Shown: positions 17,145 through 40,901 of the stretch, one piece after another
How positions within the stretch are numbered: the stretch's first letter is position 1
Layout: each line of letters begins with the position of its first letter
From: a virus
Taxonomy: Duplodnaviria > Caudoviricetes
DNA length: 59,971 nt
Virus record (IMG/VR): IMGVR_UViG_3300025769_000114
Span: 1-59,971 of that record
Strand: one strand, 5' to 3'
Program-made: the position numbers and the translations under genes
Notes under the pieces: generated by a model
Databases searched by the model: none
What the model was told of the DNA's origin: nothing
What the model saw: the letters and a program-made list of their open reading frames with translations, nothing else

Positions 17145-20100
17145 ATGGATGTAACTCTTCCAAATGGGCTTGTTGTATACGGCGTTCCTGAAGGAACAAG
17201 CAAAAAAGATCTTGCCGAAAAGCTTATAAGAAACAACATAGCAACCGCTGATGAGCTAGGCTTTGATCCGTTTGAGGATGAAAGGACTGCATCAGGCCAA
17301 GCTTTTGAGACTGCTAAAGGGATAGGCCGTGGCTTTGCCAATGCGTTCTTGTCTGCTGGTGAAGGTCTAGCTGAGCTTGCTGATGCTGGCACCAACGCGA
17401 TAGGCCTTGAGGAGTTAATAGATAGTGGCGATGAGAATGATCTAGTACGCGCTGCTAGGGAAGGCCGTGCCGCAGTTGATGAAGCGATGGGCGCTGATCT
17501 CGCGTACAGGGATCAGTGGCTCACTAAGTTTGGCGAAGGCGTGGGTTCGTTTGCCTCGTTCTTTACCCCTGCCGGAGCAATAAAGCTTGCAGGCATGGCA
17601 GGCAAGGGCATATCCGCAGCAAAAGCAGCAAAGGTTGCTGAGATTGGCGCTACCGGGGCTTTGGCCGTAGGCACAGGTGCTGGTGATCAAGCTCAAAGAA
17701 TACAAGCGGCCCGTGATTCAGGTCTAGAAGTGTCGGAAGACGAAGAAGACTTGTCTGTTTTGCTTGGTGGTGGCGTTGGTTTATCTGAGCTTATTGTTCC
17801 TCAAAGATTATTAAACAGGCTTAGAGGTCTTGAGGCTGGTAACAAACTGCCTTCAGGCATAAAAGAAAGACTTTCTTCTGCTCTTAGAACGGGCAGCGTG
17901 GAGGGTATACAGGAAGTTGCTGCAAGTATTGCTCAAGACGGTATTGAGCGAGGTGTATACAACGAAGCTTTGGAAATAAATGGCGGCAGCTTGATGGATG
18001 ATTTCACCATCGGCGGCGCTGTTGGTGCGGGTGCAGATCTTGTTATTAATGCTGTGGCTGGTAGACGCAACAAGGGAGCCTTCCAAGCCGCAGAAGAGGC
18101 TGAGGGCAAGCTTAGAGAGGATTTGCAAGACGCTCAGGACGCAAGGCAGCGTCTTCTCTCTGGTGACTTAGCTATACAAGAAAGAATAGACGCTGAAGCA
18201 GCACTTGACCGCCAAGCTGCAAATGAAGCTCGCAGGGCCGCTGGTGAGGCACCGATAGACCCATCCCAAATAGCGCCTCCTACAGGCAGGGCGCTTACAT
18301 CTAAGTTAAAGACCCCATCAAGGATTGTTTCTGTAACCGCGCCTAATGGCGAGTCATTTCAAGCAGAAGAAAAGACCAGAGTAAGGAACAAGGGAAAGCC
18401 CACAGAATCCGTCACGACTTACATAGAAGCTCCCGGCGGCGGTGAAGTAATAACCTCAGTCAATGGTGTACCGCAACAATCTGGATTCCAAATCACCACA
18501 GTTGCACAGCCTACTGAGGGCATACAGCGTCGATATCCCAAGCAACCAATGCTTGCATACGCACAATCAATTCGCCAAACAATGGGCGACAACTTCCCAT
18601 CAGCCGACAACACGTTCACTGTTAAGTTGCCAGAAGATTTTGGTGGTGTAGGCGCTAGTACCACACAGCTTGACGCTCAAGGCGTCCCTGTATTTACAGT
18701 GCAAGACAGCAACGGTCAGCAATACGGTGTGCCTTTACAGAACTCTGAAGATGCATTTGCTCTTGCTGGGTTCCTTAACGATGAAATGATCAATGACAAC
18801 GTGTTCTCTGGTGGAGACGCGGTGATCACATCATCACCAGAATCATACGACGCCGATCAAGAATCCTCGTTGCAGGCCTACAACTTTGCTGCAAACCATC
18901 CTGACTCAAATACATATAGTTCTGTTGCCGTAGACAGCGCAGCTGAGACAACGCAAGACCGTGGCTTTGATGAAACAGCCGACGTTAAGGTGTTAATGCA
19001 GGACAGGGTTGGCCCTACTAAGATGACAGCATCTCAGCGCATAAACGCTAAGCGTCTGCGTCAAGGGCTGCCAGTAACAAACACGTTTACTATTCAAGAA
19101 GTAAGAAGCGTCCTCAAAGAAGACCAGCTATACAATCTTAGCGATACACGGGTGAATGGCTTACCTGAGACTGAAACGTACAGGGCTGGCCTAAGTAAGA
19201 ACAACAACCCGATAGTGAAGAGCAGTGCTGGTGAGATTCTGCAAGGCAGGCCTCTGACCACCCTAGAAAAAGACGCTGCAATCAAAGCAAACCCGAAGAA
19301 GAAGCCGCCTAAGCTTGTTAAGTTCAAGACAGAAGCCGACGCTAGGGTCTATGCAAACCAACTCAACAATCGCACAGGCAAAGCCGCTGTTGAGAAGGGT
19401 GTCATGCGTAATGTTGACGCCAACTTCCAAGAGATGGAGCAGCTTCTCAAAGCTAAGAACATTACATCAAAAGTAGGCTCTCCTGAGATCAAGTATCTTG
19501 CAGGCAGAATACTAGGCAAGAAGACCATCAAGTCGGTAAACGATTTGTCATTGGCTGAGTCTAGGTTGTTGTATCAAAAGCTCAGATCGTTGCCACGTTT
19601 TGACAAGCCGACAAAGCTTCCTACCTTCAAGCTTCCCAAGTACACAGGCGCTCAGTTCCGCGCGGCATCAAAGACGCTGCAAGAAAACCCCAATGCAGGC
19701 GAGGTTGTTCTTGCTAATGCCACTGGTATCAACCCAACAACACAGCAAGGTGCTGCCGCTCTAAGCGATCTAAAGGCAGACCTAGCCAAGCAAGGTGTAC
19801 AGGCTGCTCCAGCCGTTGAAGCGGAGCCTGTTGTGGAGCAAGAAGCCGAGGTATTGGCGCTGCCTGCGCCAGCGGTAAATGTTGACCGATTACGCAAAGC
19901 TATTACTAAAACAATGAAAGGCTTTGGTCTGAAGGATGTGGGGCTAAGCCTTGATTACGCCCTAAGAACGGCGGTCAAAGACGCTAATGGGAACCTAGTC
20001 TACGGCATACGGCCCCGTCAAGGCGGTGATATAGACAGCATGGTTGTTGGTGGCGAGTCAGTAACTCTAGACCCCAGTCGTGAAAAAACTCAACTTGTGA

Positions 20101-23100
20101 GGTCTGATGAGATTGATCCAGAGGGCAGGGCTGAGGCGTATTACGACCCGACTATAAACACTATTTTCTTGTCAATAGACAAAGTCATGGCTGATCCCTC
20201 TATGACCGAGGCTCAAGTAGAGGCTGCGCTGCTTGAGATACTAGATCACGAAATGATTCACGCCATGCGTAAGCTTGATTTGTTCACGAACAAAGAGTGG
20301 AGCTTGCTTTCTAGGGCTGCTGCAAACAAAAAGATGCCAGACGGCAAGACGTTCCTGAAATGGGCACAAGACAATTACTCAGACTTATCGCCCGTTGATC
20401 AAGTAGAGGAGTCTGTTGCCGAGTTAGTAAGGGCTGCAAGAAAAGATCCCAAGTTGCTTCAGGGCAAGCCCCGATCCTTAGTTGAGCGTATAGCTAGATT
20501 CTTCAGGAACATGGTATCCAGCCTCAAGGGCGAGGAGTTCAACACGTTCAGCGAGGTCATAGGTGGCATAGAGTCTGGAGCGATTGGCGCTAGAGAGCGC
20601 GGCCAGATACGCACGCTTGCTCAGACACAGAAGAGAGCATCCAGAAGGTTAAAGACCCTGCAAGATAAAGGCGCTGTTGTCACCACAGGCGAGGACGCAG
20701 AGCGCCCCGTGCCCACAGCAACGGGGCAAACCATTGCTGACTTTGACGAAGCCCCAGCCTCTTCTAGGGTGCCAATAGAGGCTGAGATGGGTATCAACGT
20801 CAGAACTGATGGAGATACTAATTATGCCGAGTTGATTGTCAGCGGTCAGAAAAAATACGAGACACGCGACAAAGACTCGCTGCGCCCCTATGTGGGTAAG
20901 CGTATTGGCATAGTGGAGACAGGCTCTGGCCCTGCAAAACTTGTTGGTTACGCTACTGTGGGGGAGCCTATTGAGGTAGGCGAAGCAGAATTTGCCGATT
21001 CAAGAGATCAACATCTCGTGCCTGAAGGCAGCAAGTTTGATATCAAGCCGGGGCAGTCAAAGTTTCTTTACGAAATGATTGATCCTGAGCAGTTAGCACA
21101 ACCTATTGATGCGTCAGCGACTAAGGGCATCGTTGCTAGAAATATCTCACAACTTGGCGGTGAAGCCGCTCCTGCAACAGATCCTGATTTTGCAGAATCC
21201 CCCGTGTTTTCTAGGGAGGAGGGCTTAACAAACGAACAGGTCAGAGCTTACATTGATTCTTCTCCAATCACTCAGCAGTTTCTAGATCCAAAAGAAGTAG
21301 ATCAGCAATTCCGTGACGCTGTAGACCCAGCATCAAGATCTACCGTTGTAATGATGACTCCTAATGAGTTCTTAAACTTGGCGATGACGGGAACTGAGTT
21401 TTCTAAAACTGAGCGAGTTCAGGAGATGTTTGATGCTGGAGAAAGATTCCAGCCCAACTTTCTTCAGTTCAAGGCTAACAGGCGAGGCGCTGCGACCATT
21501 GCAGGCCATGAGGGAAGGCACAGGTCTAGGCTTTACAGGGATCAGGGATATGGCGATACGTTAATGCCTGTCACCCTAACGTCCATCGGTGGCGAAGCTG
21601 GCGAGTTACGGTTCGGTGAAAAAGATGCAAGACCAAGAGTTTTGTACAAAGAAGATGACAGGCGTTTAGTAGGCCTGACAAGCGAATCTAGAGTACGCGA
21701 CCCTGATGAAAAGCTCCGCGCCTTAGAACCATTTCAGTTGGAGTTTCCAAAAACAATACCTTTTGACCTTGAAGGATTTGCAGAGGACGGCACTCCTGTC
21801 TTCAAGACAAAGCCACTGCTTGCTGACAAAGATTATGATGGCCCAGTTTTTTCTAGAAGACCGCTAAGCCCTATGGGCGAGGCGGAACGCCTTGGTATGA
21901 CAAATACCGATCTGTTACCAACTAGTGAAGAGTTGGAGCAGATGAAGAACAACACCTACAAGCCTGAAAAGAAAAGGACACTTGCTGAAGCGGCACAGTT
22001 CCTACAGGACAGGTGGGAGGCTGCTACGGGTAGAACGGAGCCTTTTGAGTACACAGAAGAAAACATTGGCATCTTGTCTGACATGCTTGCCACAGAGGCA
22101 ATGGTTGCCCTAGAAAAAGACGGCAATGCTATTGGCTGGTATGACCGAAAGATTAAGGCCGCAAAAGAAGTGATGAAGGTTGTCGAGCCTAGAATAATGC
22201 AGTCGCCTGAGACGGAGGCCGTATTTGACTTTGTTCTGGCTGTTACATCAAACGGGCAGGCCGTGGTGGACAACTTTGAAATGGCTACGGACATGTTCCG
22301 TTTCTACATGGATAAAGGCAGGCTTCCAAAAAACAAAAAAGAATTTAACAAGGGTGGTGAGCGTAACAACGCAATGCTTGAGGCGTTCAACTTCCACAAC
22401 GCTTACGAAGCAAGCGGTCAGAACATGCGTGTTGCCGACTTCTTAGACGCTGACTTTACAGTTAACGAGCTAAGGGATATGGCTAAGGCGTTCAACAACG
22501 AGGTTGGATTTGAGGCCATTAAGGTTCCGGGCGCTGAGGGCGTTGATGTTCAAGTCAAAGGAAGCTACATCCTTGGGCCAAAGATAGGTCAGGGTTTTTA
22601 CCAGAACATTCGCGGTAACTATGATCCGCTTACTATGGATATTTGGTGGATGCGTATGTGGAACCGCGCTGTGGGACGCCCATTCGCTGCTCCACCAGAC
22701 TTAGCTAAGGCTCGCGGTGAATTGATCCCAATGATCGACAAGGTTGGCGGTCTTCCGAGGACAATTATAAAGGACGCCCTAGAGGGTTCTGACCAGCCCT
22801 ACAGCGAGATCGTTAAAGACCCGTACCTGTTTGATGAGTTCATACAGTCTGTAGAGCGCAGGTATCAGCGTTACTTCAAGGACTATAAGAAGGAGCATGG
22901 GGTTAACCATGTAAAGCCTGAGATATTCAAGAAGACAGGCACGTTTGTTAAGAACCTGAAAAAGCAACTACAAGCCACGCCTAAAAGCGGATCAGAGCGT
23001 CAATACATGCGCGAGGTTACGGCTGCTGCTAGAGAGCGCCTGTCTGAAGCTGGGTATGACATAACCACCGCCGACTTCCAAGCGTTGATGTGGTATCCTG

Positions 23101-26100
23101 AAAAGCAATTATTCAGAGCGTTAGGCGTTCAACCCGGACGGGGATCAGACAACGACTACTTAGACGCTGCTGAAATACTGGCCGAAAAAGAGGGAGTACC
23201 CCGTGGACAAGTTGAAAAAGCACTCAGGGACGCAGACAGACAGCGAGCCGTCGATAGTCGGTCAGGTGCCAGAGGGCAAGATGGATCTGTTCGTCAAGAT
23301 GATTCAGGATTCGATGCGGAAGAAAGCCCAGCGTTCAGCAGAAGGCCAGAAAACCTAGCTAAAGAAGTAATCGGTCAAAGTGAAGTTGACCGTGTAGTAG
23401 AGGATAACTTACAGGTAGCCGAAAACAGGCCAGTAAGCACAGTTCCTCGCTTCAACCCCGGCGCAGACCCATACGCTCAAGCTGTTGCAGCTAACCCCGA
23501 CAAAGGTCAGGAAGTTCCAGCGAGCGAAATGCCAGCCTTTTCTAGAGCAAACGCCCCAATAATTAATCCACTAGATCAAGCTGCTGTAGACAATGTGGTC
23601 GCAGAGCTACCTACAAACACGCCGGGGCAGACCTACTTAAACGTCTTGGATCAAGGCCCAATAGCACTCAGCCTGACTCGACTCAAACAAAAAGCAATCA
23701 ACAGGTACGCACAACTTGAAAATTATCAGGGCGCGCTTGGTAATTTATTAGCTGATTCCTCGTCAATAGCTGCCGCGCTCATGGCTGACAGATCAAACGC
23801 CATCACTGCTGCGGCATTGCAGTACGGTGTTCCGGTCTACACAGGCGGCATGACTAAGATTGTTGACTTTGAACACACCAACAGTCGAGGCGAAACCCAA
23901 AAGATTGGCGGTCTTATTGACCTCATGTCTATGCTGTACACAAAAGAGCATGGATCTTTGGAGCAGTTAGCTCAGGCTTACTCAATAGCTAAAAGGGCTG
24001 AGAGGCTAAAAGCGAAGGGTATTGATGTACCCGGAACCCCGGCAGACCACGCAGCAAACATAGCTACAGCCGAGTCATTCTTGGATGAGAACGGCAACTC
24101 AATTATTAAGGACTGGTACGACGCTTGGCAGGACTACAACGGTTACACCGTTCAGTTCTTGCAAGACACAGGTGTTGTTGACCCAGAGACTGCTGAGATG
24201 TGGCGGGATCAGTCTGACTACATACCGTTTTATCGCCAAGTAGAAGGCGCTGAAACGCCAAATGCGCCGAATATATTCGGAGGATTAACTGGCAGCGCAG
24301 ACCTAAAAGCCATCAAGGGCAGCAAGAAAGAGATCAACGTGCCCATGTTGGAAGCCATATCAATGAACCTTAATGCGGCCATAAGCATGGGCATGAAGAA
24401 TGTCGCCCAGCAACGCATTGTCAGGGACATGAGAAATCTTGGTCTTGCAAGAGAGGTTAAGCCGGGGCAAAGAACCACTGGCGAGGCTGTTGTTACGTTC
24501 AAGGTAGACGGCAACCGACGCAACTTCATCATTGATGACCCGTTAATATATGAGTCGTTAACTGTTGAACCCGCTGGTGGGTTTGAGCAGTTTATATCTA
24601 AGACTGCTGGAGTCCCTGCACGATTCCTTAGAGAGATGGTCACCCGCGAGCCGGGGTTTGTTATAGCCAACATGCTCAGAGACTCATTGTCTGCATTTGT
24701 AACTTCAGGATCTAAGTTTACGCCCGTCATTGACACTATTTTTGGCTACGCAGAAGGCATGGAAAAGCTTGAGCGGACTGGCGTTGTAGGCGGTTATGAC
24801 TACAAGAATGACCCAGAAAACATTGGCGAGTACGCAGGGAAGATCCTGCAAAAAAGAAACAAGAACGTAAAACAGAGAGATCCTATCTCTAAACTCTTCA
24901 TTGGTGCTTGGGATGTGATGGGCCAAGCGACCACAAGGTCTGACGCCGCAACGAGAAACGCGGTCTATAAAGATGTCCTCGCTCGCACTGGCAACGAAGC
25001 TGAGGCAAGCTTTCAAGCAATGGAGGTTCTTAACTTCGGGCGTCGAGGCAGCAACGTTGGAATGCGTATACTTACAGCCACAATCCCATTCCTAAACGCA
25101 AGGCTTCAAGGATTGGACGTTCTATACCGAGGCCTATCAGGGAAGAGCAGTGCAAACAGAGAGCTTTCTAGGGGTCAAGCAGCTAGGAGTGCGTTCGCAA
25201 GAGGCTCGCTGATAGCCGCCAGTACAGCTATTTACTACGCAATGTTTAGCGATGATGAGCAGTACAAAGAACAGACAGAAGAAGTAAAAGATAATTACTG
25301 GATTATACCTACAGCGTCTGGTGTACCAGTACGAGTGCCGATCCCGTTTGAAGTTGGGTTGTTGTTTAAGACTTTGCCAGAGCGCATCATAGACTCATAC
25401 AACGAAGGCACTACACCCAGAGAAGCCCAGCAATCTGTTCAGCGAGCCGTATTTGGAACACTTGGCATTCAGCCACCGCAAGCGATCACGCCACTCATAG
25501 AAGCTTACATGAACTACGACCTGTACACTGGCCGACCTGTTACTCCAGTGTTCATAGAGGGCAACTTAGATCCACAATTCCAAGAGCTTGCATCCACCAG
25601 TGAGATCGCCAAGAACATGTCGAAGGTCGTTGGTATTAGTCCGATAAAAATAGATCACCTAATGAACGGATACGGCGGAACAATAGGTATGTACTTCTTA
25701 GGCGGCCTTGATTACGTGCTAAGAGACAGCTATGTGCAAGGTGACAACAGGGCTGTTCTTGCGGGTAAAGATGTTTCTCAGTACCCAATTATCAGACGGT
25801 TCTTTGGCTCAGAGTTCGGCGGTGGTGCAAAAGAAGACTTCTACGAGATGTGGGACTACATTAAGCGCGTAGAGCAAACAACTAAAAAGCTTTATGAAGA
25901 CGGCAGGACTGATGAGCTTGAGAGTTATCTCGTTAATAACAGACAGTTCTTGGGGCTGAAGTCTCAATTGCAGCCTACTGCAACGGCGCTATCCGACCTG
26001 CGGAATCAAAGAAGGACGATATTAAAAGCGGATCTAACAGCGGCGCAAAAGCAAGAGGCCATAAAGCTGATAAACGAACAAGAGCGTTACTACTTACAGA

Positions 26101-26180
26101 TTGTTCCTCAGCTTGAAAGATACATTCAGCTACCCACCATCGCTGAAAAAGTCGCAGACAGGCTATCGTCGCTTCTGTAG
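17145..26180 (+). CDS. Large polyvalent virion protein (zincin metallopeptidase, ASCH, ParB-like, HhH-glycosylase-like, C-terminal LPD38-like)
   Basis: HEMIH at 20247; YAELIVSGQKKYETR (ASCH); GHEGRHR; GWY...GPK..FY.N..G...TMDIW..R...QALMW; IPFLNA..QG...KDNYWIIP...IPFEVG. Confidence 0.8.
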   Translation: MDVTLPNGLVVYGVPEGTSKKDLAEKLIRNNIATADELGFDPFEDERTASGQAFETAKGIGRGFANAFLSAGEGLAELADAGTNAIGLEELIDSGDENDLVRAAREGRAAVDEAMGADLAYRDQWLTKFGEGVGSFASFFTPAGAIKLAGMAGKGISAAKAAKVAEIGATGALAVGTGAGDQAQRIQAARDSGLEVSEDEEDLSVLLGGGVGLSELIVPQRLLNRLRGLEAGNKLPSGIKERLSSALRTGSVEGIQEVAASIAQDGIERGVYNEALEINGGSLMDDFTIGGAVGAGADLVINAVAGRRNKGAFQAAEEAEGKLREDLQDAQDARQRLLSGDLAIQERIDAEAALDRQAANEARRAAGEAPIDPSQIAPPTGRALTSKLKTPSRIVSVTAPNGESFQAEEKTRVRNKGKPTESVTTYIEAPGGGEVITSVNGVPQQSGFQITTVAQPTEGIQRRYPKQPMLAYAQSIRQTMGDNFPSADNTFTVKLPEDFGGVGASTTQLDAQGVPVFTVQDSNGQQYGVPLQNSEDAFALAGFLNDEMINDNVFSGGDAVITSSPESYDADQESSLQAYNFAANHPDSNTYSSVAVDSAAETTQDRGFDETADVKVLMQDRVGPTKMTASQRINAKRLRQGLPVTNTFTIQEVRSVLKEDQLYNLSDTRVNGLPETETYRAGLSKNNNPIVKSSAGEILQGRPLTTLEKDAAIKANPKKKPPKLVKFKTEADARVYANQLNNRTGKAAVEKGVMRNVDANFQEMEQLLKAKNITSKVGSPEIKYLAGRILGKKTIKSVNDLSLAESRLLYQKLRSLPRFDKPTKLPTFKLPKYTGAQFRAASKTLQENPNAGEVVLANATGINPTTQQGAAALSDLKADLAKQGVQAAPAVEAEPVVEQEAEVLALPAPAVNVDRLRKAITKTMKGFGLKDVGLSLDYALRTAVKDANGNLVYGIRPRQGGDIDSMVVGGESVTLDPSREKTQLVRSDEIDPEGRAEAYYDPTINTIFLSIDKVMADPSMTEAQVEAALLEILDHEMIHAMRKLDLFTNKEWSLLSRAAANKKMPDGKTFLKWAQDNYSDLSPVDQVEESVAELVRAARKDPKLLQGKPRSLVERIARFFRNMVSSLKGEEFNTFSEVIGGIESGAIGARERGQIRTLAQTQKRASRRLKTLQDKGAVVTTGEDAERPVPTATGQTIADFDEAPASSRVPIEAEMGINVRTDGDTNYAELIVSGQKKYETRDKDSLRPYVGKRIGIVETGSGPAKLVGYATVGEPIEVGEAEFADSRDQHLVPEGSKFDIKPGQSKFLYEMIDPEQLAQPIDASATKGIVARNISQLGGEAAPATDPDFAESPVFSREEGLTNEQVRAYIDSSPITQQFLDPKEVDQQFRDAVDPASRSTVVMMTPNEFLNLAMTGTEFSKTERVQEMFDAGERFQPNFLQFKANRRGAATIAGHEGRHRSRLYRDQGYGDTLMPVTLTSIGGEAGELRFGEKDARPRVLYKEDDRRLVGLTSESRVRDPDEKLRALEPFQLEFPKTIPFDLEGFAEDGTPVFKTKPLLADKDYDGPVFSRRPLSPMGEAERLGMTNTDLLPTSEELEQMKNNTYKPEKKRTLAEAAQFLQDRWEAATGRTEPFEYTEENIGILSDMLATEAMVALEKDGNAIGWYDRKIKAAKEVMKVVEPRIMQSPETEAVFDFVLAVTSNGQAVVDNFEMATDMFRFYMDKGRLPKNKKEFNKGGERNNAMLEAFNFHNAYEASGQNMRVADFLDADFTVNELRDMAKAFNNEVGFEAIKVPGAEGVDVQVKGSYILGPKIGQGFYQNIRGNYDPLTMDIWWMRMWNRAVGRPFAAPPDLAKARGELIPMIDKVGGLPRTIIKDALEGSDQPYSEIVKDPYLFDEFIQSVERRYQRYFKDYKKEHGVNHVKPEIFKKTGTFVKNLKKQLQATPKSGSERQYMREVTAAARERLSEAGYDITTADFQALMWYPEKQLFRALGVQPGRGSDNDYLDAAEILAEKEGVPRGQVEKALRDADRQRAVDSRSGARGQDGSVRQDDSGFDAEESPAFSRRPENLAKEVIGQSEVDRVVEDNLQVAENRPVSTVPRFNPGADPYAQAVAANPDKGQEVPASEMPAFSRANAPIINPLDQAAVDNVVAELPTNTPGQTYLNVLDQGPIALSLTRLKQKAINRYAQLENYQGALGNLLADSSSIAAALMADRSNAITAAALQYGVPVYTGGMTKIVDFEHTNSRGETQKIGGLIDLMSMLYTKEHGSLEQLAQAYSIAKRAERLKAKGIDVPGTPADHAANIATAESFLDENGNSIIKDWYDAWQDYNGYTVQFLQDTGVVDPETAEMWRDQSDYIPFYRQVEGAETPNAPNIFGGLTGSADLKAIKGSKKEINVPMLEAISMNLNAAISMGMKNVAQQRIVRDMRNLGLAREVKPGQRTTGEAVVTFKVDGNRRNFIIDDPLIYESLTVEPAGGFEQFISKTAGVPARFLREMVTREPGFVIANMLRDSLSAFVTSGSKFTPVIDTIFGYAEGMEKLERTGVVGGYDYKNDPENIGEYAGKILQKRNKNVKQRDPISKLFIGAWDVMGQATTRSDAATRNAVYKDVLARTGNEAEASFQAMEVLNFGRRGSNVGMRILTATIPFLNARLQGLDVLYRGLSGKSSANRELSRGQAARSAFARGSLIAASTAIYYAMFSDDEQYKEQTEEVKDNYWIIPTASGVPVRVPIPFEVGLLFKTLPERIIDSYNEGTTPREAQQSVQRAVFGTLGIQPPQAITPLIEAYMNYDLYTGRPVTPVFIEGNLDPQFQELASTSEIAKNMSKVVGISPIKIDHLMNGYGGTIGMYFLGGLDYVLRDSYVQGDNRAVLAGKDVSQYPIIRRFFGSEFGGGAKEDFYEMWDYIKRVEQTTKKLYEDGRTDELESYLVNNRQFLGLKSQLQPTATALSDLRNQRRTILKADLTAAQKQEAIKLINEQERYYLQIVPQLERYIQLPTIAEKVADRLSSLL

Positions 26181-28048: not shown

Positions 28049-28363
28049 TTAAAACGGTATGTCTTCGTCAAAATCAATCGGATCAGCCTGTTGCTGCGGA
28101 GCCTCTTCCTTGGGCGCTTTGTAGACCTCAGTACCGAGCCACTTGTACTCGGAGCCAGTCTGCTTCGCCACTCGGTTCCACATGCCCACATCAATCTTCA
28201 TCTTAAAATCAGGATCTGGACTCGCCTGATTCTCCTTGTACATTTCCAAGAGAAGCTTTAACTGCTCTGGGGTGATGTAGATGTGCCCCCGAAAGTCTGG
28301 GTGCTTTTCGTTCTTTTTGTTGTGAGGCCACAAACCGCCTTCGCCTTTTGGATAACTAGCCAT
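28049..28363 (-). CDS. Single-stranded DNA-binding protein
   Basis: KKNEKHPDFRG N-terminal motif, acidic DEDIPF tail, next to Sak. Confidence 0.75.
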   Translation of the reverse strand: MASYPKGEGGLWPHNKKNEKHPDFRGHIYITPEQLKLLLEMYKENQASPDPDFKMKIDVGMWNRVAKQTGSEYKWLGTEVYKAPKEEAPQQQADPIDFDEDIPF

Positions 28364-29084
28364 TAGCTTTTTCCTTGCTGTTAAGTTCGTCCTGCTTCGC
28401 CTTCATAGCAGCCGCAAGTCTGTCGTAGGATTTAGGGAACTTGGATTGAATGTGGTCAACGGCTTTTTTGTTTGCCTCCCACATGCTACGCAGCCCCTTC
28501 TTAGTTTCGACCATGCCCTCAACTGTTGAGATCATCATGTCTACCCAGCCATCCGCTTGCTCAGCATTGAAGGCAAGATAAAACTCTTCTTCTTCTGCAT
28601 CACCAGCGTCTGCCTTTGGTTCTGGTTTCTTTTTGGGCGGCTGCTTGGCCTTAGGCTTTTGTTCAGCCACAGGTTGTTCAGCCTCAGTGTCATCCCATGT
28701 ATCTTCCGGCTGCACCTGACCTTGGAAGATGTGAAAGCCAAGTCCGAACATAGCAATCGTCTTAACTAGACAGCGCATTTTGGTGTCGCTGATATCACGG
28801 GCGCTAGGGTTAGGGATGGCTTGGTTTTTGTAGTTCATCACAGGCAACCACATATGACGGGCGTGGCCTTCGATAGCTACTGTGCAGTGAATAGTTTGCG
28901 ATCCGTCACCGTGGATCTCAATCTCGCCAAACTCGTAGTGGGCCGTGGGGTAATGCATCATCAACAACCGCCATGCCTCATTCCAAGGTAGGTACGTTAG
29001 TCCGTTCTTTTGCTTGGCGGACTCACCACATTTAACTGGGTAAAGGGTATCCCAGATATCGCGTAGCGATACGTTAGTTTCCAT
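28356..29084 (-). CDS. sak: Sak/Rad52-like ssDNA annealing protein
   Basis: KNGLTYLPW..AW...MWLPVMNYKNQAI...MRCLVK.IAMFGLG..I. Confidence 0.85.
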   Translation of the reverse strand: METNVSLRDIWDTLYPVKCGESAKQKNGLTYLPWNEAWRLLMMHYPTAHYEFGEIEIHGDGSQTIHCTVAIEGHARHMWLPVMNYKNQAIPNPSARDISDTKMRCLVKTIAMFGLGFHIFQGQVQPEDTWDDTEAEQPVAEQKPKAKQPPKKKPEPKADAGDAEEEEFYLAFNAEQADGWVDMMISTVEGMVETKKGLRSMWEANKKAVDHIQSKFPKSYDRLAAAMKAKQDELNSKEKANG

Positions 29085-29103
29085 ATTGCACTCCTGCTAT
29101 GGG

Positions 29104-29388
29104 TTAGTTTTGAGAACTGAATGGGTCTTTTTTGAACCCCGTAAATTTGTTTCGGTAATACTTCTTTGGGACGCTATAGAACTCTTCTAGAGCGGCCTCA
29201 ATCAGCATTGCTATTTCAATCGGCTCCAGCGCGTAAAACTGCGCCATCGGAAAGCCTGTTATGAAGCCCTTGGCCCAAGTGAACGAGGCTTGCCCGTTGT
29301 TGGTGGACATCTTCAGTGCTGGTATCTGCGTTATCTGGAACACAGCGACCATCTTTTCATAGGTTTCTTTGTCAGTCCCGATCATCAT
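29104..29388 (-). CDS. Hypothetical protein
   Basis: GGAGG SD; fits the operon. Confidence 0.6.
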   Translation of the reverse strand: MMIGTDKETYEKMVAVFQITQIPALKMSTNNGQASFTWAKGFITGFPMAQFYALEPIEIAMLIEAALEEFYSVPKKYYRNKFTGFKKDPFSSQN

Positions 29389-29602
29389 CTTCCTCCACTA
29401 ATCTGGGCTTTTTGTGCAAAAACGTCTCGCACCAATGCATGATTTCATACACAGCTTCAGTCACTAGCTCTGGCTCAATCGGCTCAATCACAGTTGAAAG
29501 AGTTCCGGTTTCTGAGTCATAGCTGAAGTGCATGTGCAGCTCGCCTTTATCCGTTTCCACATCAAGTCTCCAGTTGATTTTGATCACACCACCTCGCAAC
29601 AC
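29372..29602 (-). CDS. Hypothetical protein (true start probably near 29560)
   Basis: Fills the operon gap. Confidence 0.5.
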   Translation of the reverse strand: MLRGGVIKINWRLDVETDKGELHMHFSYDSETGTLSTVIEPIEPELVTEAVYEIMHWCETFLHKKPRLVEEDDDRD

Positions 29603-30440
29603 GACACCAATCTTGAGCGCACCGAGTAGACTCGCCTACCCGCTCTTCGATCAAGTGGTCTTTGCCAAGTGATTTGATGTAGGCTTCGGCCTCATCCCTT
29701 GACGTTAGGACGCGCACAGCCCGTTTACGGCCTTTTTTATTCACAGCATAGGTGGTTGGCTTCTCCCAACGCTCGGCTCCTGTGCAGGGCGGTAACACGC
29801 CTCCAGTCATGTGGTCAAACTCAGCTTGTTGATGCAGCAGCACCCGATCCAGCATGTACTGGTCTGTCTCCTCGACGCTCCACATCGGTATCTCTACCAT
29901 ATGGATTGGCGAGTCTGGATAGTCTGGCTCCATCTGAGCTTTACGCCGCTGCCAATCACGCAGTATCGCTATAATCCTTAACCCTTTGACTGGTAAATCC
30001 TTAGCAGACCTCACAAGCCAAGCATATGCGTTAAGTTGATTGTGCCATTCGGTTTTGTCGTGAATGACAGACCAGACAGAAGTCACCTTGTAGTCACTTA
30101 CCAGTACGCCATCGTCGTGCAGTTCCTGCAAGTCAATCGCGCCACTGATCGTCCAACCCTCCACCTCAGCATACAGCCGCTCCTCTGATACAACGCCCAC
30201 AGCAGTGGTGTCCTCGACAGCCTTCTCAAACATGCCGTGAACACTAGTGCCGAAGCGTGACCAGAGAAAATCGACCACATCCTGAGACATCTCGTCTTCA
30301 TGCTCGCGCTGCAAAATGGCTACCCTTGGGCTGTCTATCAACTGAGTCACTGACCTGTTGGACTTGCCTTTTGTGTAATCATCCTGCGTTAAAGCGTTTA
30401 CAACGATCTGCGGAAGGTTGAAATGATTCGTTATCTTCAC
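29562..30440 (-). CDS. PD-(D/E)XK exonuclease (Cas4/RecB-like)
   Basis: GTSVH, SGAID...DYK, QLNAY, C-terminal Cys cluster. Confidence 0.85.
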   Translation of the reverse strand: MKITNHFNLPQIVVNALTQDDYTKGKSNRSVTQLIDSPRVAILQREHEDEMSQDVVDFLWSRFGTSVHGMFEKAVEDTTAVGVVSEERLYAEVEGWTISGAIDLQELHDDGVLVSDYKVTSVWSVIHDKTEWHNQLNAYAWLVRSAKDLPVKGLRIIAILRDWQRRKAQMEPDYPDSPIHMVEIPMWSVEETDQYMLDRVLLHQQAEFDHMTGGVLPPCTGAERWEKPTTYAVNKKGRKRAVRVLTSRDEAEAYIKSLGKDHLIEERVGESTRCAQDWCRVARWCDQNQLET

Positions 30441-37963: not shown

Positions 37964-39055
37964 TTAGCGAGTGGCCTTGTGGGCCACATACTCAGGGGTT
38001 GATAGCAGGTCTGCATCGCGGCGCGTTGCCAGCGCCCAGAACACCTCGACCAGTTCTTCGTTGATGCGCTTGAGAACAACCACTGCATTGCCAAGGTTGT
38101 CAGTGGTCACCCGTGCAGCCAGCGCAGCGGTCACTGCATACTGAGTAGTGATCTCATTCGGCAGCGGCACGTTGTGCGGATCTGACAGAAACAAGTTGAT
38201 GTCTGGCAGGTTACGCATGGTGCGGACAAACGCCATAAACTCAGCGGCAGCGCCGAATCCTACGGCACCCTCAATGGCGATCTGCTCAAGATCAGCAGGT
38301 AAATCGTCACTGAGAATGTCAGACACTGATTGCCAGCCGCGAGGTGTAGCGATAGCCACCCTGTCTTTAGGTGTGCCGCCATCGGGGAACTCGTGAATGA
38401 GTCCGGCCTGATCACCTGATGCCTCACCGCGAAACTTCAGGAACGCAACCACAAGCGGGTTAGCGCCAGTGTCTGCAAGGTAGTCGCTGGTCTCAGCAGC
38501 GGACGGCACAACATCCAAGTGATACTTGAATCTTGTACTTACGGCAGCGTCGATGCGGCCAGACACACCAGCACCGTCATTGGGTCGATTAGATGCAGCG
38601 ATAACAAACCAGCCCTTGGGCAGGATGTAGTCGCCAAGCCGACCATCGTTTAGTAGCTGGTAAGACGCGAATTGCGCTGATTGAGTGCCAAGCATTAGCT
38701 CATCCATAAGCAAGCAGCCCTCTGGGCCGTCGCGCTCCACGTTGGGTAGCCATGATGGCGTAGACCATTCGGTTGTGGATGCTTCGCCGTCGCCGCTGAT
38801 GTACGGGACACCGCGAGTATCGACTGCATCCAACTGTGACAGGCGTACATCAATCAGGCCTATCGGTCTGTCGAGAGTCTTGGAAAGCTTTTCCATAGCC
38901 TGACGGACGATTGAGGACTTAGCTGCCGCGTAGATGCCCCACAGAAATATAGGCAACTGGCGCTTGTCGCTAGACAGTTGAGAGGTCGCATGTGCGAGTA
39001 TTAGTTGTGCAGCCTGTGAAGGGCTGACTTTCGGTGCGTTTATTGATTTAGTCAT
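37964..39055 (-). CDS. MoxR-like AAA+ ATPase with atypical Walker A
   Basis: IFLWGIYAAAKS, IDVRLSQ.D..D.RG.P, LLMDEL, IAASNR, ATPRGW. Confidence 0.88.
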   Translation of the reverse strand: MTKSINAPKVSPSQAAQLILAHATSQLSSDKRQLPIFLWGIYAAAKSSIVRQAMEKLSKTLDRPIGLIDVRLSQLDAVDTRGVPYISGDGEASTTEWSTPSWLPNVERDGPEGCLLMDELMLGTQSAQFASYQLLNDGRLGDYILPKGWFVIAASNRPNDGAGVSGRIDAAVSTRFKYHLDVVPSAAETSDYLADTGANPLVVAFLKFRGEASGDQAGLIHEFPDGGTPKDRVAIATPRGWQSVSDILSDDLPADLEQIAIEGAVGFGAAAEFMAFVRTMRNLPDINLFLSDPHNVPLPNEITTQYAVTAALAARVTTDNLGNAVVVLKRINEELVEVFWALATRRDADLLSTPEYVAHKATR

Positions 39056-39090
39056 AACTAGTCAATGCTCCAAAGTTAAGGTTGTTGGTT

Positions 39091-39151
39091 ATCCAAGACC
39101 GCCCAGAGGGCGGTTTCACGCTGGTCACCAGCCAGCACTCGTCAGTTGGAT
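39091..39151 (-). ncRNA. Type I hammerhead ribozyme HH1
   Basis: AUCCAA CUGACGA GUGCUGG cugguga CCAGCGU GAAA CCGCCC ucu GGGCG GUC UUGGAU: full core and three stems; predicted cleavage between 39097 and 39096. Confidence 0.92.
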
Positions 39152-39360
39152 TAGGTCTCTAGGGTTGCAGCAGGGTCGAACTTCCATTGATCTGCAAGCT
39201 TGTAATAGAGGCGAGCAAACTGTTTGCGCTTTGCAATGTTGAACGATGGAGTCTCAACATGGGGGTTGCGGTCTCCATCCGCCTTTGCCAGCGCCTCAAG
39301 CAAATCCAATACCTCAGATCGGGCTTGTTCTTGCGGTGTGTGTCCGTACTTGTTTCTCAT
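39151..39360 (-). CDS. Hypothetical early protein
   Basis: GGAG SD; stop codon abuts HH1. Confidence 0.7.
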   Translation of the reverse strand: MRNKYGHTPQEQARSEVLDLLEALAKADGDRNPHVETPSFNIAKRKQFARLYYKLADQWKFDPAATLET

Positions 39361-39385
39361 TGGTTATGCTCCGTAGTTGGAATGG

Positions 39386-39634
39386 TTAGTCAGAACCCCA
39401 AGGTCTGGCGTTCAGCTTTTTAAGTCGGGCACCAGACACCGTGGCATCCATGACGGCACCTGACCAAGCACGATTGGTTAGCTCTACCAAATGCTCGCCG
39501 TTGTGGCCTTTCCAGAATGCGGTGCCTGTTGTTACCCATGTCTGATGCTTGAGTCCTTTAACTGGCACAACCACATCGGTGTCCACTCTTATCTGTTGCT
39601 TTTCGTTCATCTTTATCCTCAGTCGGTTTTCCAA
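39386..39634 (-). CDS. Hypothetical early protein (start UUG 39634 or AUG 39610)
   Basis: Both candidate starts have SD-like sequences. Confidence 0.65.
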   Translation of the reverse strand: MENRLRIKMNEKQQIRVDTDVVVPVKGLKHQTWVTTGTAFWKGHNGEHLVELTNRAWSGAVMDATVSGARLKKLNARPWGSD

Positions 39635-39693
39635 GACCGTGCCTCCTACACGGTTTCACGCCACTAACCAAGCGGCACTCATCAGTTGGAAAA
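39627..39693 (-). ncRNA. Type I hammerhead ribozyme HH2
   Basis: UUUUCCAA CUGAUGA GUGCCGCU ugguu AGUGGCGU GAAA CCGUG uaggagg CACG GUC UUGGAAAA; predicted cleavage between 39635 and 39634. Confidence 0.92.
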
Positions 39694-39933
39694 GGTTAGG
39701 TTATCGGTGAACAGCTTGAGTTCTGCGTGTTCCCAGCGGTCTAGCCAATCGACCTGAGCCTTAACCTGCGGCCAGCGCAGGGTGTGGCCTGTCTGCTTTT
39801 CGTAGTCGGCAAGTATCTGATCGGACAACTTGCCAATGCTCAGAATCCATTGCAGCCGTTCACGGTTGCTCAGGTTGGTGCGGTCTAGGTTCTGCTTGAT
39901 GTCATCAATGTCTGAGTTGTACTGCTCAATCAT
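39682..39933 (-). CDS. Hypothetical early protein
   Basis: ATGA coupling; its UGA stop is part of the HH2 core. Confidence 0.7.
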   Translation of the reverse strand: MIEQYNSDIDDIKQNLDRTNLSNRERLQWILSIGKLSDQILADYEKQTGHTLRWPQVKAQVDWLDRWEHAELKLFTDNLTFSN

Positions 39934-40489: not shown

Positions 40490-40865
40490 AGTTCAGTTCA
40501 TCAATAGCCACTCAGTAAGTGGTCATTGGTGAGCCGAAGCTCTGCCGCATCCCAGCTCGTTGGGCATTGTCAGGATCAAAGGCCGACTGAGTAGCATTGC
40601 CCTGTACAGGGACGAGCCTCACCCAGCCGTTCAACCTCAGACCTTCACCAATGCTTTAGTTCTGGCTGCTGCGGCAAACAGCGCGTGTCTTGGTCTGCAT
40701 GTGTGACTGCCCATTGATTGTCGGTACGGCACACTGCTCGCCTCTCACGCCCCAGAACATTTCCCCGTCTGGTAGGTGCATCCGATGCCGCATTGCCCAT
40801 TGATTGTCGGTACGAGCGGTGCATCCGGTGGATGGCGGGATTGGGTACGGCTCCCCGTCGCCGTT
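40490..40865 (-). ncRNA. Structured 5' leader of the early operon
   Basis: Multiple stems, a cUUCGg loop, a 21-nt tandem repeat in hairpin tips and a possible pseudoknot. Confidence 0.5.
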
Positions 40866-40871
40866 GAGTGG

Positions 40872-40901
40872 ATTATACGCACAGGTGAACGCAGTACGCA
40901 A
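40872..40901 (-). promoter_or_regulatory. Sigma70-type leftward early promoter
   Basis: TTGCGT-N18-TATAAT. Confidence 0.55.

What the first reader, a model, noticed from the sequence alone, without database searches (positions are those of the whole stretch)
39091..39693. Two intact hammerhead ribozymes punctuate the early operon
Seen (minus strand): both have CUGANGA, stem II, GAAA, stem III, GUC and a closing stem I. The stems differ in sequence between copies yet remain paired, which is natural covariation. In each, loop II is complementary to the 3' tail (UGGU/ACCA; UUGGUU/AACCGA), matching the pseudoknot contact known for fast type I hammerheads. Both start at the stop codon of the upstream gene. 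Known: hammerheads occur in phage intergenic regions, but their function there is largely unresolved. Inference: the polycistron self-processes into segments without host RNase III, and the two cuts excise a 538-nt RNA (39634-39097) carrying two ORFs, with 5'-OH and cyclic-phosphate ends that could be circularised by RtcB.
Basis: partly seen in the sequence, partly recalled or inferred. Interest (0 to 1): 0.88.

Follow-up and report, generated by a model that had tools for sequence, protein, structure and literature searches.

The report
Two hammerhead ribozymes in phage operon
Two genuine self-cutting hammerhead RNAs sit between genes of an uncultured phage's operon, a known arrangement, and comparison with related phages shows that small genes are gained and lost exactly at these ribozymes.

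Summary
Both minus-strand elements (HH1 39694-39615, HH2 39154-39077) have the full hammerhead core, three paired stems and a loop II/3'-tail pseudoknot. The predicted cuts, 39635|39634 and 39097|39096, lie 538 nt apart. Rfam's models miss them at the gathering score. A covariance model built only from 78 other viral hammerheads scores them 74.4 and 65.2 bits, against a next-best 13.3. Across 101 distinct relatives, 97.9% of pair cells are standard pairs, and the pseudoknot covaries too.

This is a known kind. Perreault et al. 2011 described clustered hammerheads flanking genes in prophages. They proposed mRNA processing, and they looked for circular or spliced products without finding any.

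Most likely each ribozyme cuts the polycistron after the upstream stop codon and 24-41 nt before the next start. That would leave separate, insulated mRNAs. Circularisation has no support.

The new detail concerns gene turnover. HH2 precedes the ATPase gene in all close relatives. HH1-ORF3-ORF4 is a hammerhead-to-hammerhead insertion. One relative carries a single chimeric ribozyme there, so the crossover fell inside the ribozyme. No RNA evidence was obtainable.

The parts
39615..39694 (-). HH1: type I hammerhead with 3' tail. C17 is 39635 and the predicted cut is 39635|39634.
   Evidence: Sequence. R1 87.7 bits. Independent model R2 65.2 bits, E 3.1e-13. The minimum-energy fold gives the three-way junction, z -2.32.
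39077..39154 (-). HH2: type I hammerhead with 3' tail. C17 is 39097 and the predicted cut is 39097|39096.
   Evidence: Sequence. R1 89.5 bits. R2 74.4 bits, E 1.9e-15. Rfam RF00163 23.2 bits, below the cut-off of 34. Fold z -2.77.
39097..39634 (-). The 538-nt RNA that lies between the two predicted cuts. It would be a bicistronic ORF3-ORF4 message with a 5'-OH and a 2',3'-cyclic phosphate if both ribozymes act.
   Evidence: Arithmetic. The end chemistry is inferred from hammerhead chemistry and was not observed.
39682..39933 (-). ORF2 (83 aa). Its stop codon UGA is the UGA of the HH1 CUGA core.
   Evidence: Homologues of 83-91% identity occur in 4 relatives' contigs: L004/L135, L011/L142, L014/L141 and L028.
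39386..39610 (-). ORF3 (74 aa), with Shine-Dalgarno GAGGA at 39620-39616. The start lies 24 nt after the HH1 cut.
   Evidence: 7 protein clusters, unnamed. 100% amino-acid identity in L003/L006/L009/L012.
39361..39388 (-). ORF3-ORF4 junction without a ribozyme. It reads like a hammerhead 5' flank fused to a hammerhead 3' tail at a shared CCAACU, so it may be the scar of a lost ribozyme.
   Evidence: The motif CCAACTA[AC]GGA occurs in 4 unique contexts among all loci. 3 are hammerhead tails and 1 is this junction.
39151..39360 (-). ORF4 (69 aa). Its stop UAA abuts stem I of HH2 and is in frame with the core UGA.
   Evidence: 23 protein clusters, with no functional name from any source. A homologue lies directly downstream of a hammerhead in L031.
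37964..39055 (-). ATPase gene (phrog_1297). The start lies 41 nt after the HH2 cut.
   Evidence: A hammerhead cut lies 15-42 nt upstream in 14 of 14 loci whose ATPase is at least 47% identical.
40870..40901 (-). Possible promoter of the operon (TTGCGT, 18 nt, TATAAT). Read by eye only.
   Evidence: Sequence. The consensus scan did not list it.

Best explanation
These are two active-looking type I hammerhead self-cleaving ribozymes, each held in shape by a loop II/3'-tail pseudoknot. They fill two intergenic spacers of a minus-strand operon of an uncultured 60-kb tailed phage.

Proposed action (inferred): each folds as it is transcribed and cuts after C17. The upstream message keeps its stop codon and ends in a compact ribozyme fold with a 2',3'-cyclic phosphate. 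The downstream message starts with a 5'-OH, 24 nt (ORF3) or 41 nt (ATPase) before its start codon, with its Shine-Dalgarno sequence free. The polycistron is thereby split into ...ORF2, ORF3-ORF4 and ATPase-onward messages. Their stability and translation are uncoupled from the neighbouring genes, a natural version of a ribozyme insulator.

History at the DNA level: HH2 is the ancestral ribozyme in front of the ATPase gene. HH1 arrived with the ORF3(-ORF4) cassette by recombination inside the conserved ribozyme sequence.

Shown here: the motifs, covariation, position rules, conservation in relatives, and indels bounded by the ribozymes. Inferred: cleavage in vivo, the end chemistry, and the effect on expression.
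For: Core and stems.

Family membership:
- The independent model R2 was built from 78 matches in 83 other loci, with the window and its close relatives left out. It scores 74.4 and 65.2 bits, against a next-best 13.3.

Covariation:
- In A1 (13 sequences), 98.3% of cells are paired and 10 of 22 pairs change on both sides. 0 of 500 shuffles reach this.
- In A2 (124 matches, 101 distinct), 97.9% are paired and 19 of 22 pairs change on both sides. 0 of 500 shuffles reach this, and slid controls give 30-41%.
- The pseudoknot helix was not part of the model. It is 95.6% paired, and one of its pairs shows GC 59, AU 29, GU 7.

Position, from 104 distinct contexts:
- 99 have a Shine-Dalgarno sequence plus a start 10-120 nt after the cut (median 30, quartiles 25 and 35).
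- 90 have an ORF of at least 40 codons ending nearby. In 28 the stop is the core UGA, in 51 it ends 0-12 nt before the core, and in 11 it lies farther away.
- All hammerheads of a locus lie on one strand. 27 of 82 loci have 2 to 6 of them.

Conservation: 9 of 9 contigs whose ATPase is 77-96% identical carry a hammerhead about 20 nt upstream.

Cassette:
- Against L135, L028 and L142, the window has one extra hammerhead-to-hammerhead unit. Their single ribozyme aligns to both HH1 and HH2.
- The L004 ribozyme equals HH1 up to GGUCUUGGA and the HH2 tail after it.

Literature: clusters flanking phage genes and the processing hypothesis are in Perreault 2011 (passages).
Against: No transcript data exist for this virus, and cleavage is untested.

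Both elements fall below Rfam's gathering scores.

The pair next to the catalytic core (10.1-11.1) is G.U here. It is G-C in 67 of the 81 scored rows and G.U in 13. Its effect on the cleavage rate is unknown.

In HH1 the outer stem I (UUUU/AAAA) competes with two pseudoknot pairs.

The ORF2 stop codon lies in the core. A terminating ribosome would therefore unfold HH1, and the timing of cleavage relative to translation is open.

The benefit of 5'-OH and cyclic-phosphate ends for stability rests on recalled knowledge of bacterial RNA decay in model hosts. The host here is unknown.
Confidence: 0.72

Rival explanations
1. The two cuts release the 538-nt ORF3-ORF4 RNA, and its ends are then joined into a circular mRNA. 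The join would come from the ribozyme's reverse reaction or from a host RtcB-type ligase. Alternatively the flanking pieces are joined and the cassette is spliced out.
For: The ends are compatible. The HH2 ribozyme part co-folds with the HH1 3' strand at -27.8 kcal/mol, the same as the cognate HH2 pair. HH1 with the HH2 strand gives -24.5. Stem I and the pseudoknot are nearly the same in both copies. The L004 arrangement equals the sequence that a splice-out would give. Perreault 2011 raise both ideas.
Against: Perreault 2011 state that they could not detect circular or spliced products. In the fold of the whole 538-nt RNA the ends do not pair with each other, and the circular minimum energy (-156.8) is worse than the linear one (-161.5). 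The single-ribozyme form is explained more simply by DNA recombination in a double-stranded DNA phage. No ligase gene was seen among the proteins scanned, but only 19 proteins were scanned.
Confidence: 0.06
2. The ribozymes are conditional switches. Cleavage competes with translation of the upstream gene, or with a factor or metal level. The ratio of coupled polycistronic RNA to cut RNA would then be regulated.
For: In 79 of the 90 contexts with an upstream ORF, the stop lies inside or within 12 nt of the core, so a terminating ribosome must unfold stem I and the core. In HH1 the extended stem I competes with the pseudoknot. Perreault 2011 discuss regulated variants.
Against: Tight packing between the stop and the next ribosome-binding site is equally expected from plain economy of phage genomes. 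No alternative conserved structure was found or tested.
Confidence: 0.14
3. The elements no longer cut. They persist as conserved DNA homology islands for recombination, or as RNA hairpins that protect 3' ends.
For: The G.U at 10.1-11.1 departs from the usual G-C. Both score below the Rfam cut-off. Breakpoints of mosaicism fall at the elements.
Against: Every invariant core residue is kept in both copies and in all 13 members of the G.U subfamily, while the stems and pseudoknot change by compensatory pairs. Such purifying selection on unpaired core bases is not expected for a hairpin or a DNA site.
Confidence: 0.07

Closest known systems
Clustered hammerhead ribozymes flanking genes in prophages (Perreault et al. 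2011, PLoS Comput Biol; passages read)
   Same: There are several hammerheads on one strand within a few kb. They flank single genes or short gene blocks of varying identity. Many use a pseudoknot between the stem I and stem II regions. Processing into gene-length mRNAs was proposed.
   Different: This is a subfamily with tandem G.U/U.G pairs at the base of stem II, in an uncultured virus. Here the gain and loss of units can be traced between relatives to crossovers inside the ribozyme. Their supplementary alignments could not be opened, so they may already hold such sequences.
Rfam RF00163 Hammerhead_1 (type I)
   Same: The core, the order of helices and the open stem I match. The local match covers the full model, positions 1-45.
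   Different: The score is 23.2 bits against a cut-off of 34. Stems II and III are much longer than in the model, 13-nt inserts against 6 and 4. The model has no pseudoknot tail.
PeSL regulatory cassettes of T4-type phages (Arbiol et al. 2010; abstract read)
   Same: A short conserved regulatory element is repeated between small non-essential genes in a variable region. Insertions, deletions and replacements between relatives are bounded by the element.
   Different: PeSLs are a promoter plus a terminator stem-loop acting on transcription. Here the repeated element is a self-cleaving RNA, and no promoter-like or terminator-like site lies in it. DNA mini-circles were not examined.
Engineered ribozyme insulators such as RiboJ (recalled, no paper opened)
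   Same: A hammerhead placed just upstream of a ribosome-binding site cuts off the upstream RNA and gives a fixed 5' leader.
   Different: This one is natural, it sits between cistrons rather than after a promoter, and its effect is untested.
Hammerhead-bounded circular RNAs (viroid-like RNAs, retrozymes; review passages)
   Same: The unit is bounded by two hammerheads whose halves can re-pair across the ends.
   Different: Those units are non-coding or replicate as RNA, and circles have been shown for them. Here the unit is a protein-coding piece of a DNA phage operon with no circle evidence.

Membership tests
Hammerhead ribozyme, type I | Conserved core: C3 U4 G5 A6 N7 G8 A9, G12 A13 A14, A15.1-U16.1, and H17 at the cleavage site | tested here: met
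   Both copies have CUGAYGA ... GAA A ... U C, with C17 at 39635 and 39097.
Hammerhead ribozyme, type I | Three helices around the core, supported by compensatory changes | tested here: met
   A1: 98.3% paired and 10 of 22 pairs change on both sides. A2: 97.9% paired and 19 of 22 pairs change on both sides, with 0 of 500 shuffles reaching this. Stem I also covaries when left unconstrained: among 77 unique hammerheads there were 21 combinations other than CCAA/UUGG.
Hammerhead ribozyme, type I | Helix I open, helices II and III closed by loops | tested here: met
   Sequence and folds.
Hammerhead ribozyme, type I | Tertiary contact between the stem I side and loop II, here a pseudoknot with the 3' tail | tested here: met
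   The helix was not in the model, yet it is 95.6% paired and 3 of its 4 pairs change on both sides.
Hammerhead ribozyme, type I | Standard pair directly next to the core in stem II (usually G10.1-C11.1) | tested here: inconclusive
   Here it is G.U followed by U.G. The family shows GC 67, GU 13 and other 1, out of 81 scored rows. It is a wobble, not a mispair. Its effect on activity is unknown.
Hammerhead ribozyme, type I | Self-cleavage after position 17 | not testable with these tools
   No usable RNA data.
Rfam RF00163 / RF02275 as curated | Score at or above the gathering cut-off | tested here: not met
   23.2 against 34, and 15.3 against 52. This is a limit of those models, not a feature that defines the ribozyme class.
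Clustered phage hammerheads (Perreault 2011) | Two or more hammerheads, same strand, flanking genes in a phage genome | tested here: met
   Two in a complete virus record, 538 nt apart, flanking two ORFs. 27 of 82 related loci have 2 to 6.
Hammerhead-derived circular RNA | A covalently closed RNA with the cut-site junction | not testable with these tools
   Only compatibility of the ends could be computed.
PeSL-like shuffling cassette | Indels between relatives are bounded by the repeated element | tested here: met
   Window against L135, L028, L142, L138 and L141. Second clade: L050 and L013 against L056.
PeSL-like shuffling cassette | The element is a promoter plus a terminator | tested here: not met
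   No promoter-like or terminator-like site on the minus strand within 39077-39694.

The most novel reading that the evidence does not exclude
The hammerheads double as the portable junctions of a gene-cassette system. Each small gene travels with one ribozyme, and crossovers fall inside the conserved ribozyme sequence. A relative's single ribozyme is HH1 up to GGUCUUGGA and HH2 after it. Any newly acquired gene therefore arrives already insulated and correctly processed. The phage's own Sak single-strand-annealing protein and PD-(D/E)XK nuclease could drive exchange at such short homologies.

A bolder form is that HH1 and HH2 are interchangeable in stem I and in the pseudoknot. The cassette could then also be removed or circularised at the RNA level.
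Probability: 0.35. Interest if true: 0.6.

Novelty: new member of a known kind. Interest (0 to 1): 0.36.

Why it matters
The purpose of the many hammerheads in phage genomes is still open. The 2019 review states that the reason for their gene associations 'has not yet been determined'.

This window adds no new kind of element. It does give a clean, testable case, with these features:
- a complete phage genome with exactly two ribozymes;
- a conserved partner gene (the ATPase);
- strict placement between a stop codon and the next ribosome-binding site;
- natural variants among relatives with one ribozyme or with two, bounding different cassettes, at the same site.

That series of variants can be used to ask two questions. 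Does the ribozyme insulate expression? Does it serve as the seam for gene exchange?

Tried and rejected
GenBank phages:
- blastn of 3 kb and of 631 nt around the site gave no match.
- The 78-nt HH2 gave only a 20-nt chance match in a mycobacteriophage.
- tblastn with the ATPase gave only relatives below 60% identity, about 28-29% among the rows listed. These included MoxR-like ATPases of Acinetobacter and Vibrio phages. No cultured relative and no host was identified.

RNA evidence:
- One metatranscriptome run held 9% of the sampled words.
- Laying it gave only two 151-nt contigs. One lies at 38916-39066. The other, from a relative, lies at 39651-39777 and runs on for 24 unlike letters.
- Neither shows an end, nor bridges a cut site by the tool's own criterion. 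This is no evidence either way, for habitat as well.

Function of ORF3 and ORF4:
- No Pfam or PHROG family matched.
- Their homologues carry no functional name.
- The AlphaFold models are weak, with pLDDT 64.3 and 67.4.
- Foldseek against PDB and BFVD found nothing at E <= 0.001.

Literature:
- The search for an ATPase or von Willebrand link to hammerhead or twister genes found 0 papers.
- The searches for hammerheads as cassette or recombination boundaries in phages listed nothing relevant. This is not proof of absence.
- Weinberg 2015 (PMC4509812) is not held, and supplements were closed.

My own missteps:
- My first count of upstream stops and its first revision were flawed. A TTG in stem I was taken as a start, and an in-frame core UGA hid the real stop. 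Only the downstream figures and the upstream figures are used.
- L007 and L008 were dropped. They match the stem II pattern, but no GUC, stem I or stem III follows it.
- The parse kept only hits with stems of at least 4, 3 and 3 pairs: 99 hits, 74 unique, from 133 loci.

Full report
WHAT IS THERE

The window is a whole virus record of 59,971 bases, rated 100% complete. On the minus strand, two elements at 39694-39615 (HH1) and 39154-39077 (HH2) each carry:
- the hammerhead core (CUGAUGA or CUGACGA, GAA, A15.1-U16.1, C17);
- an open stem I;
- hairpin stems II and III.

Loop II pairs with the 3' tail in both copies. In HH2 this is UGGU with ACCA. In HH1 it is UUGGUU with AACCGA, with one U.G wobble.

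The ORF2 stop codon is the UGA inside the HH1 CUGA core. The ORF4 stop UAA abuts stem I of HH2.

IS IT MORE THAN CHANCE?

A loose motif search alone is not convincing. It gives 4 matches against 1.5 expected, and 7 of 100 shuffles reach 4.

Rfam finds nothing at its gathering scores. In a local scan HH2 reaches 23.2 bits on Hammerhead_1 (cut-off 34) and HH1 reaches 15.3 bits on HH9 (cut-off 52).

Related sequences settle the matter.
- A pattern fixing only the core and the base of stem II found 15 viral stretches. 13 of them hold complete hammerheads with different stems.
It also found 7 contigs of metagenome-assembled bacterial genomes.
- Model R1, built from the 13-sequence alignment, found 124 matches in 82 of 100 sources.
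- On these matches (101 distinct rows), 97.9% of pair cells are standard pairs and 19 of 22 pairs change on both sides. 0 of 500 shuffles reach this, and slid controls give 30-41%.
- The pseudoknot was not part of the model, yet it is 95.6% paired and covaries. One pair shows GC 59, AU 29, GU 7. Another shows UA 77, CG 13.
- Model R2 was built from 78 matches in 83 loci, with the window and its close relatives left out. It scores HH2 at 74.4 bits (E 1.9e-15) and HH1 at 65.2 bits (E 3.1e-13), against a next-best 13.3 bits.
- With stem I left free, 38 of 77 unique hammerheads have CCAA/UUGG. The other 39 show 21 other paired combinations.

One departure from the usual core should be noted. The pair next to the core in stem II is G.U, followed by U.G. 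The family shows G-C in 67 and G.U in 13 of 81 scored rows. Close relatives such as L028 and L050 instead have G-C with the U bulged.

CONTEXT

The operon runs on the minus strand, from a possible promoter near 40900 (read by eye). Its order is:
- a long leader;
- a conserved 49-aa arginine-rich ORF;
- ORF1;
- ORF2;
- HH1;
- ORF3;
- ORF4;
- HH2;
- an ATPase (phrog_1297);
- a DUF2201 metallopeptidase/VWA-like protein.

The operon diverges from the terminase and structural genes on the plus strand. 'Early' is plausible but not shown. No promoter-like or terminator-like site lies in or between the ribozymes on that strand. A terminator-like hairpin follows the ATPase gene.

ORF3 and ORF4 are real conserved small genes of unknown function, with 7 and 23 protein clusters.

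PLACEMENT RULES ACROSS THE FAMILY

These come from 104 distinct contexts.
- 99 have a Shine-Dalgarno sequence plus a start 10-120 nt after the cut, with median 30 and quartiles 25 and 35.
- 90 have an ORF of at least 40 codons ending nearby. In 28 the stop is the core UGA, in 51 it ends 0-12 nt before the core, and in 11 it lies farther away.

So the ribozyme fills the spacer, the upstream message keeps its stop codon, and the downstream message gets a short defined leader. Hammerheads within a locus always share a strand. 27 of 82 loci have 2 to 6 of them, spaced 250-2894 nt apart.

RELATIVES AND THE CASSETTE

All 9 contigs whose ATPase is 77-96% identical carry a hammerhead about 20 nt upstream of it. 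Four of these carry identical ribozymes. Of the two distant relatives also searched, L143 has one weak match downstream of its ATPase and L144 has none.

The rule holds for 14 of 14 loci with an ATPase at least 47% identical. In 5 loci at 28% identity, the nearest hammerhead is 722-2005 nt away.

Upstream of that conserved ribozyme, the content differs between relatives.
- L135, L028 and L142 have ORF2, one hammerhead, then the ATPase.
- L138 has hammerhead, ORF3, hammerhead, then the ATPase.
- L136 and L141 have another 63-aa ORF before the single hammerhead.
- L013 and L050 have two hammerheads around other small ORFs.

Against L135, the window's homology runs 40545-39622 and resumes at 39150. 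The relative's single ribozyme aligns to both HH1 and HH2. That ribozyme (L004, the same contig as L135) is identical to HH1 through GGUCUUGGA and to the HH2 tail thereafter.

ORF3 is 100% identical in protein, and 97% identical in DNA over 39691-39375, to the L138 group. The adjacent ATPase region is only 80% identical, and the change happens at the ribozymes.

The ORF3-ORF4 junction lacks a ribozyme. It reads as a hammerhead 5' flank joined to a hammerhead tail at a shared CCAACU. The joining motif otherwise occurs only in hammerhead tails (3 of the 4 unique contexts). A lost third ribozyme is a reasonable inference.

The phage encodes a Sak single-strand-annealing protein and a PD-(D/E)XK nuclease. 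From recalled literature, such proteins favour exchange at short or diverged homology.

MECHANISM

The best reading is co-transcriptional self-cleavage. It would split the polycistron into separately stable, separately translated messages. The ribozyme fold and the cyclic phosphate would protect the upstream 3' end. The 5'-OH and a freed leader would serve the downstream gene. These steps are inferred from hammerhead chemistry and from recalled knowledge of bacterial RNA decay. No transcript data could be obtained.

Circularisation or splice-out is chemically conceivable, because the two ribozymes have interchangeable stem I and pseudoknot (co-folds of -27.8 and -24.5 kcal/mol). But the ends do not pair in the full-length fold. 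Perreault et al. also report failing to detect such products.

COMPARISON WITH WHAT IS KNOWN

Perreault et al. 2011 (passages) state the following:
- multiple hammerheads flank genes or short gene blocks in prophages;
- the identities of those genes vary;
- long phage transcripts may be processed into gene-length mRNAs;
- pseudoknots occur in all three topologies, in about 40% of representatives.

The finding is therefore a new member of a known kind. This parallels the PeSL cassettes of T4-type phages (abstract). My searches found no paper making that link for hammerheads, but the library is partial and supplements were closed.

VERDICT

Interest is modest.

Noticed in passing
window 40708-40813 (minus strand): The long 5' leader of the operon holds a 20-nt direct repeat (GTACCGACAATCAATGGGCA) at 40813-40794 and 40727-40708. 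The stretch 40886-40545 is kept at about 94% in the L138 group but is missing or replaced in other relatives. It may be a non-coding RNA or a regulatory region. Rfam gave nothing.
   Followed up: partly
window 28356-30440 (minus strand): A Sak single-strand-annealing protein (PF06378, E 2.3e-26) lies close to a PD-(D/E)XK nuclease. Together they would be a phage recombination module, and could explain exchange at short homologies such as the ribozyme cores.
   Followed up: no
window 17145-26180 (plus strand): A 3011-aa protein whose only Pfam match is LPD38, a large-polyvalent-protein domain. It is probably a giant virion or injected protein.
   Followed up: no
window 39139-39153 (minus strand): The ORF4 stop UAA is in frame with the UGA of the HH2 core (UAA UCC AAC UGA), which gives a tandem stop.
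   Followed up: no
L022 (IMG/VR contig, 11066 nt): Six hammerhead matches lie on one strand within about 4.4 kb. This is a far denser punctuated operon than the window's.
   Followed up: no
L028:2229-2307 and L050:1796-1874: Close relatives carry a variant base of stem II, with G10.1-C11.1 and a bulged U, in place of the window's tandem G.U/U.G. This natural pair of variants would suit a test of what that position does.
   Followed up: no
L128-L134 (genome contigs): The same stem I/core pattern occurs in metagenome-assembled genomes labelled Thiohalocapsa, Prevotella, Lachnospiraceae, Clostridia, Bacteriovoracaceae and Bacilli. These are presumably prophages. The class is not tied to one host group.
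   Followed up: no
L120:11640-11975: A hammerhead tail plus ribosome-binding site (GATAACCAAATTGGAGAACGTG) is repeated, without the ribozyme, in front of the ORF4 homologue. This is another possible trace of recombination at hammerhead tails.
   Followed up: partly
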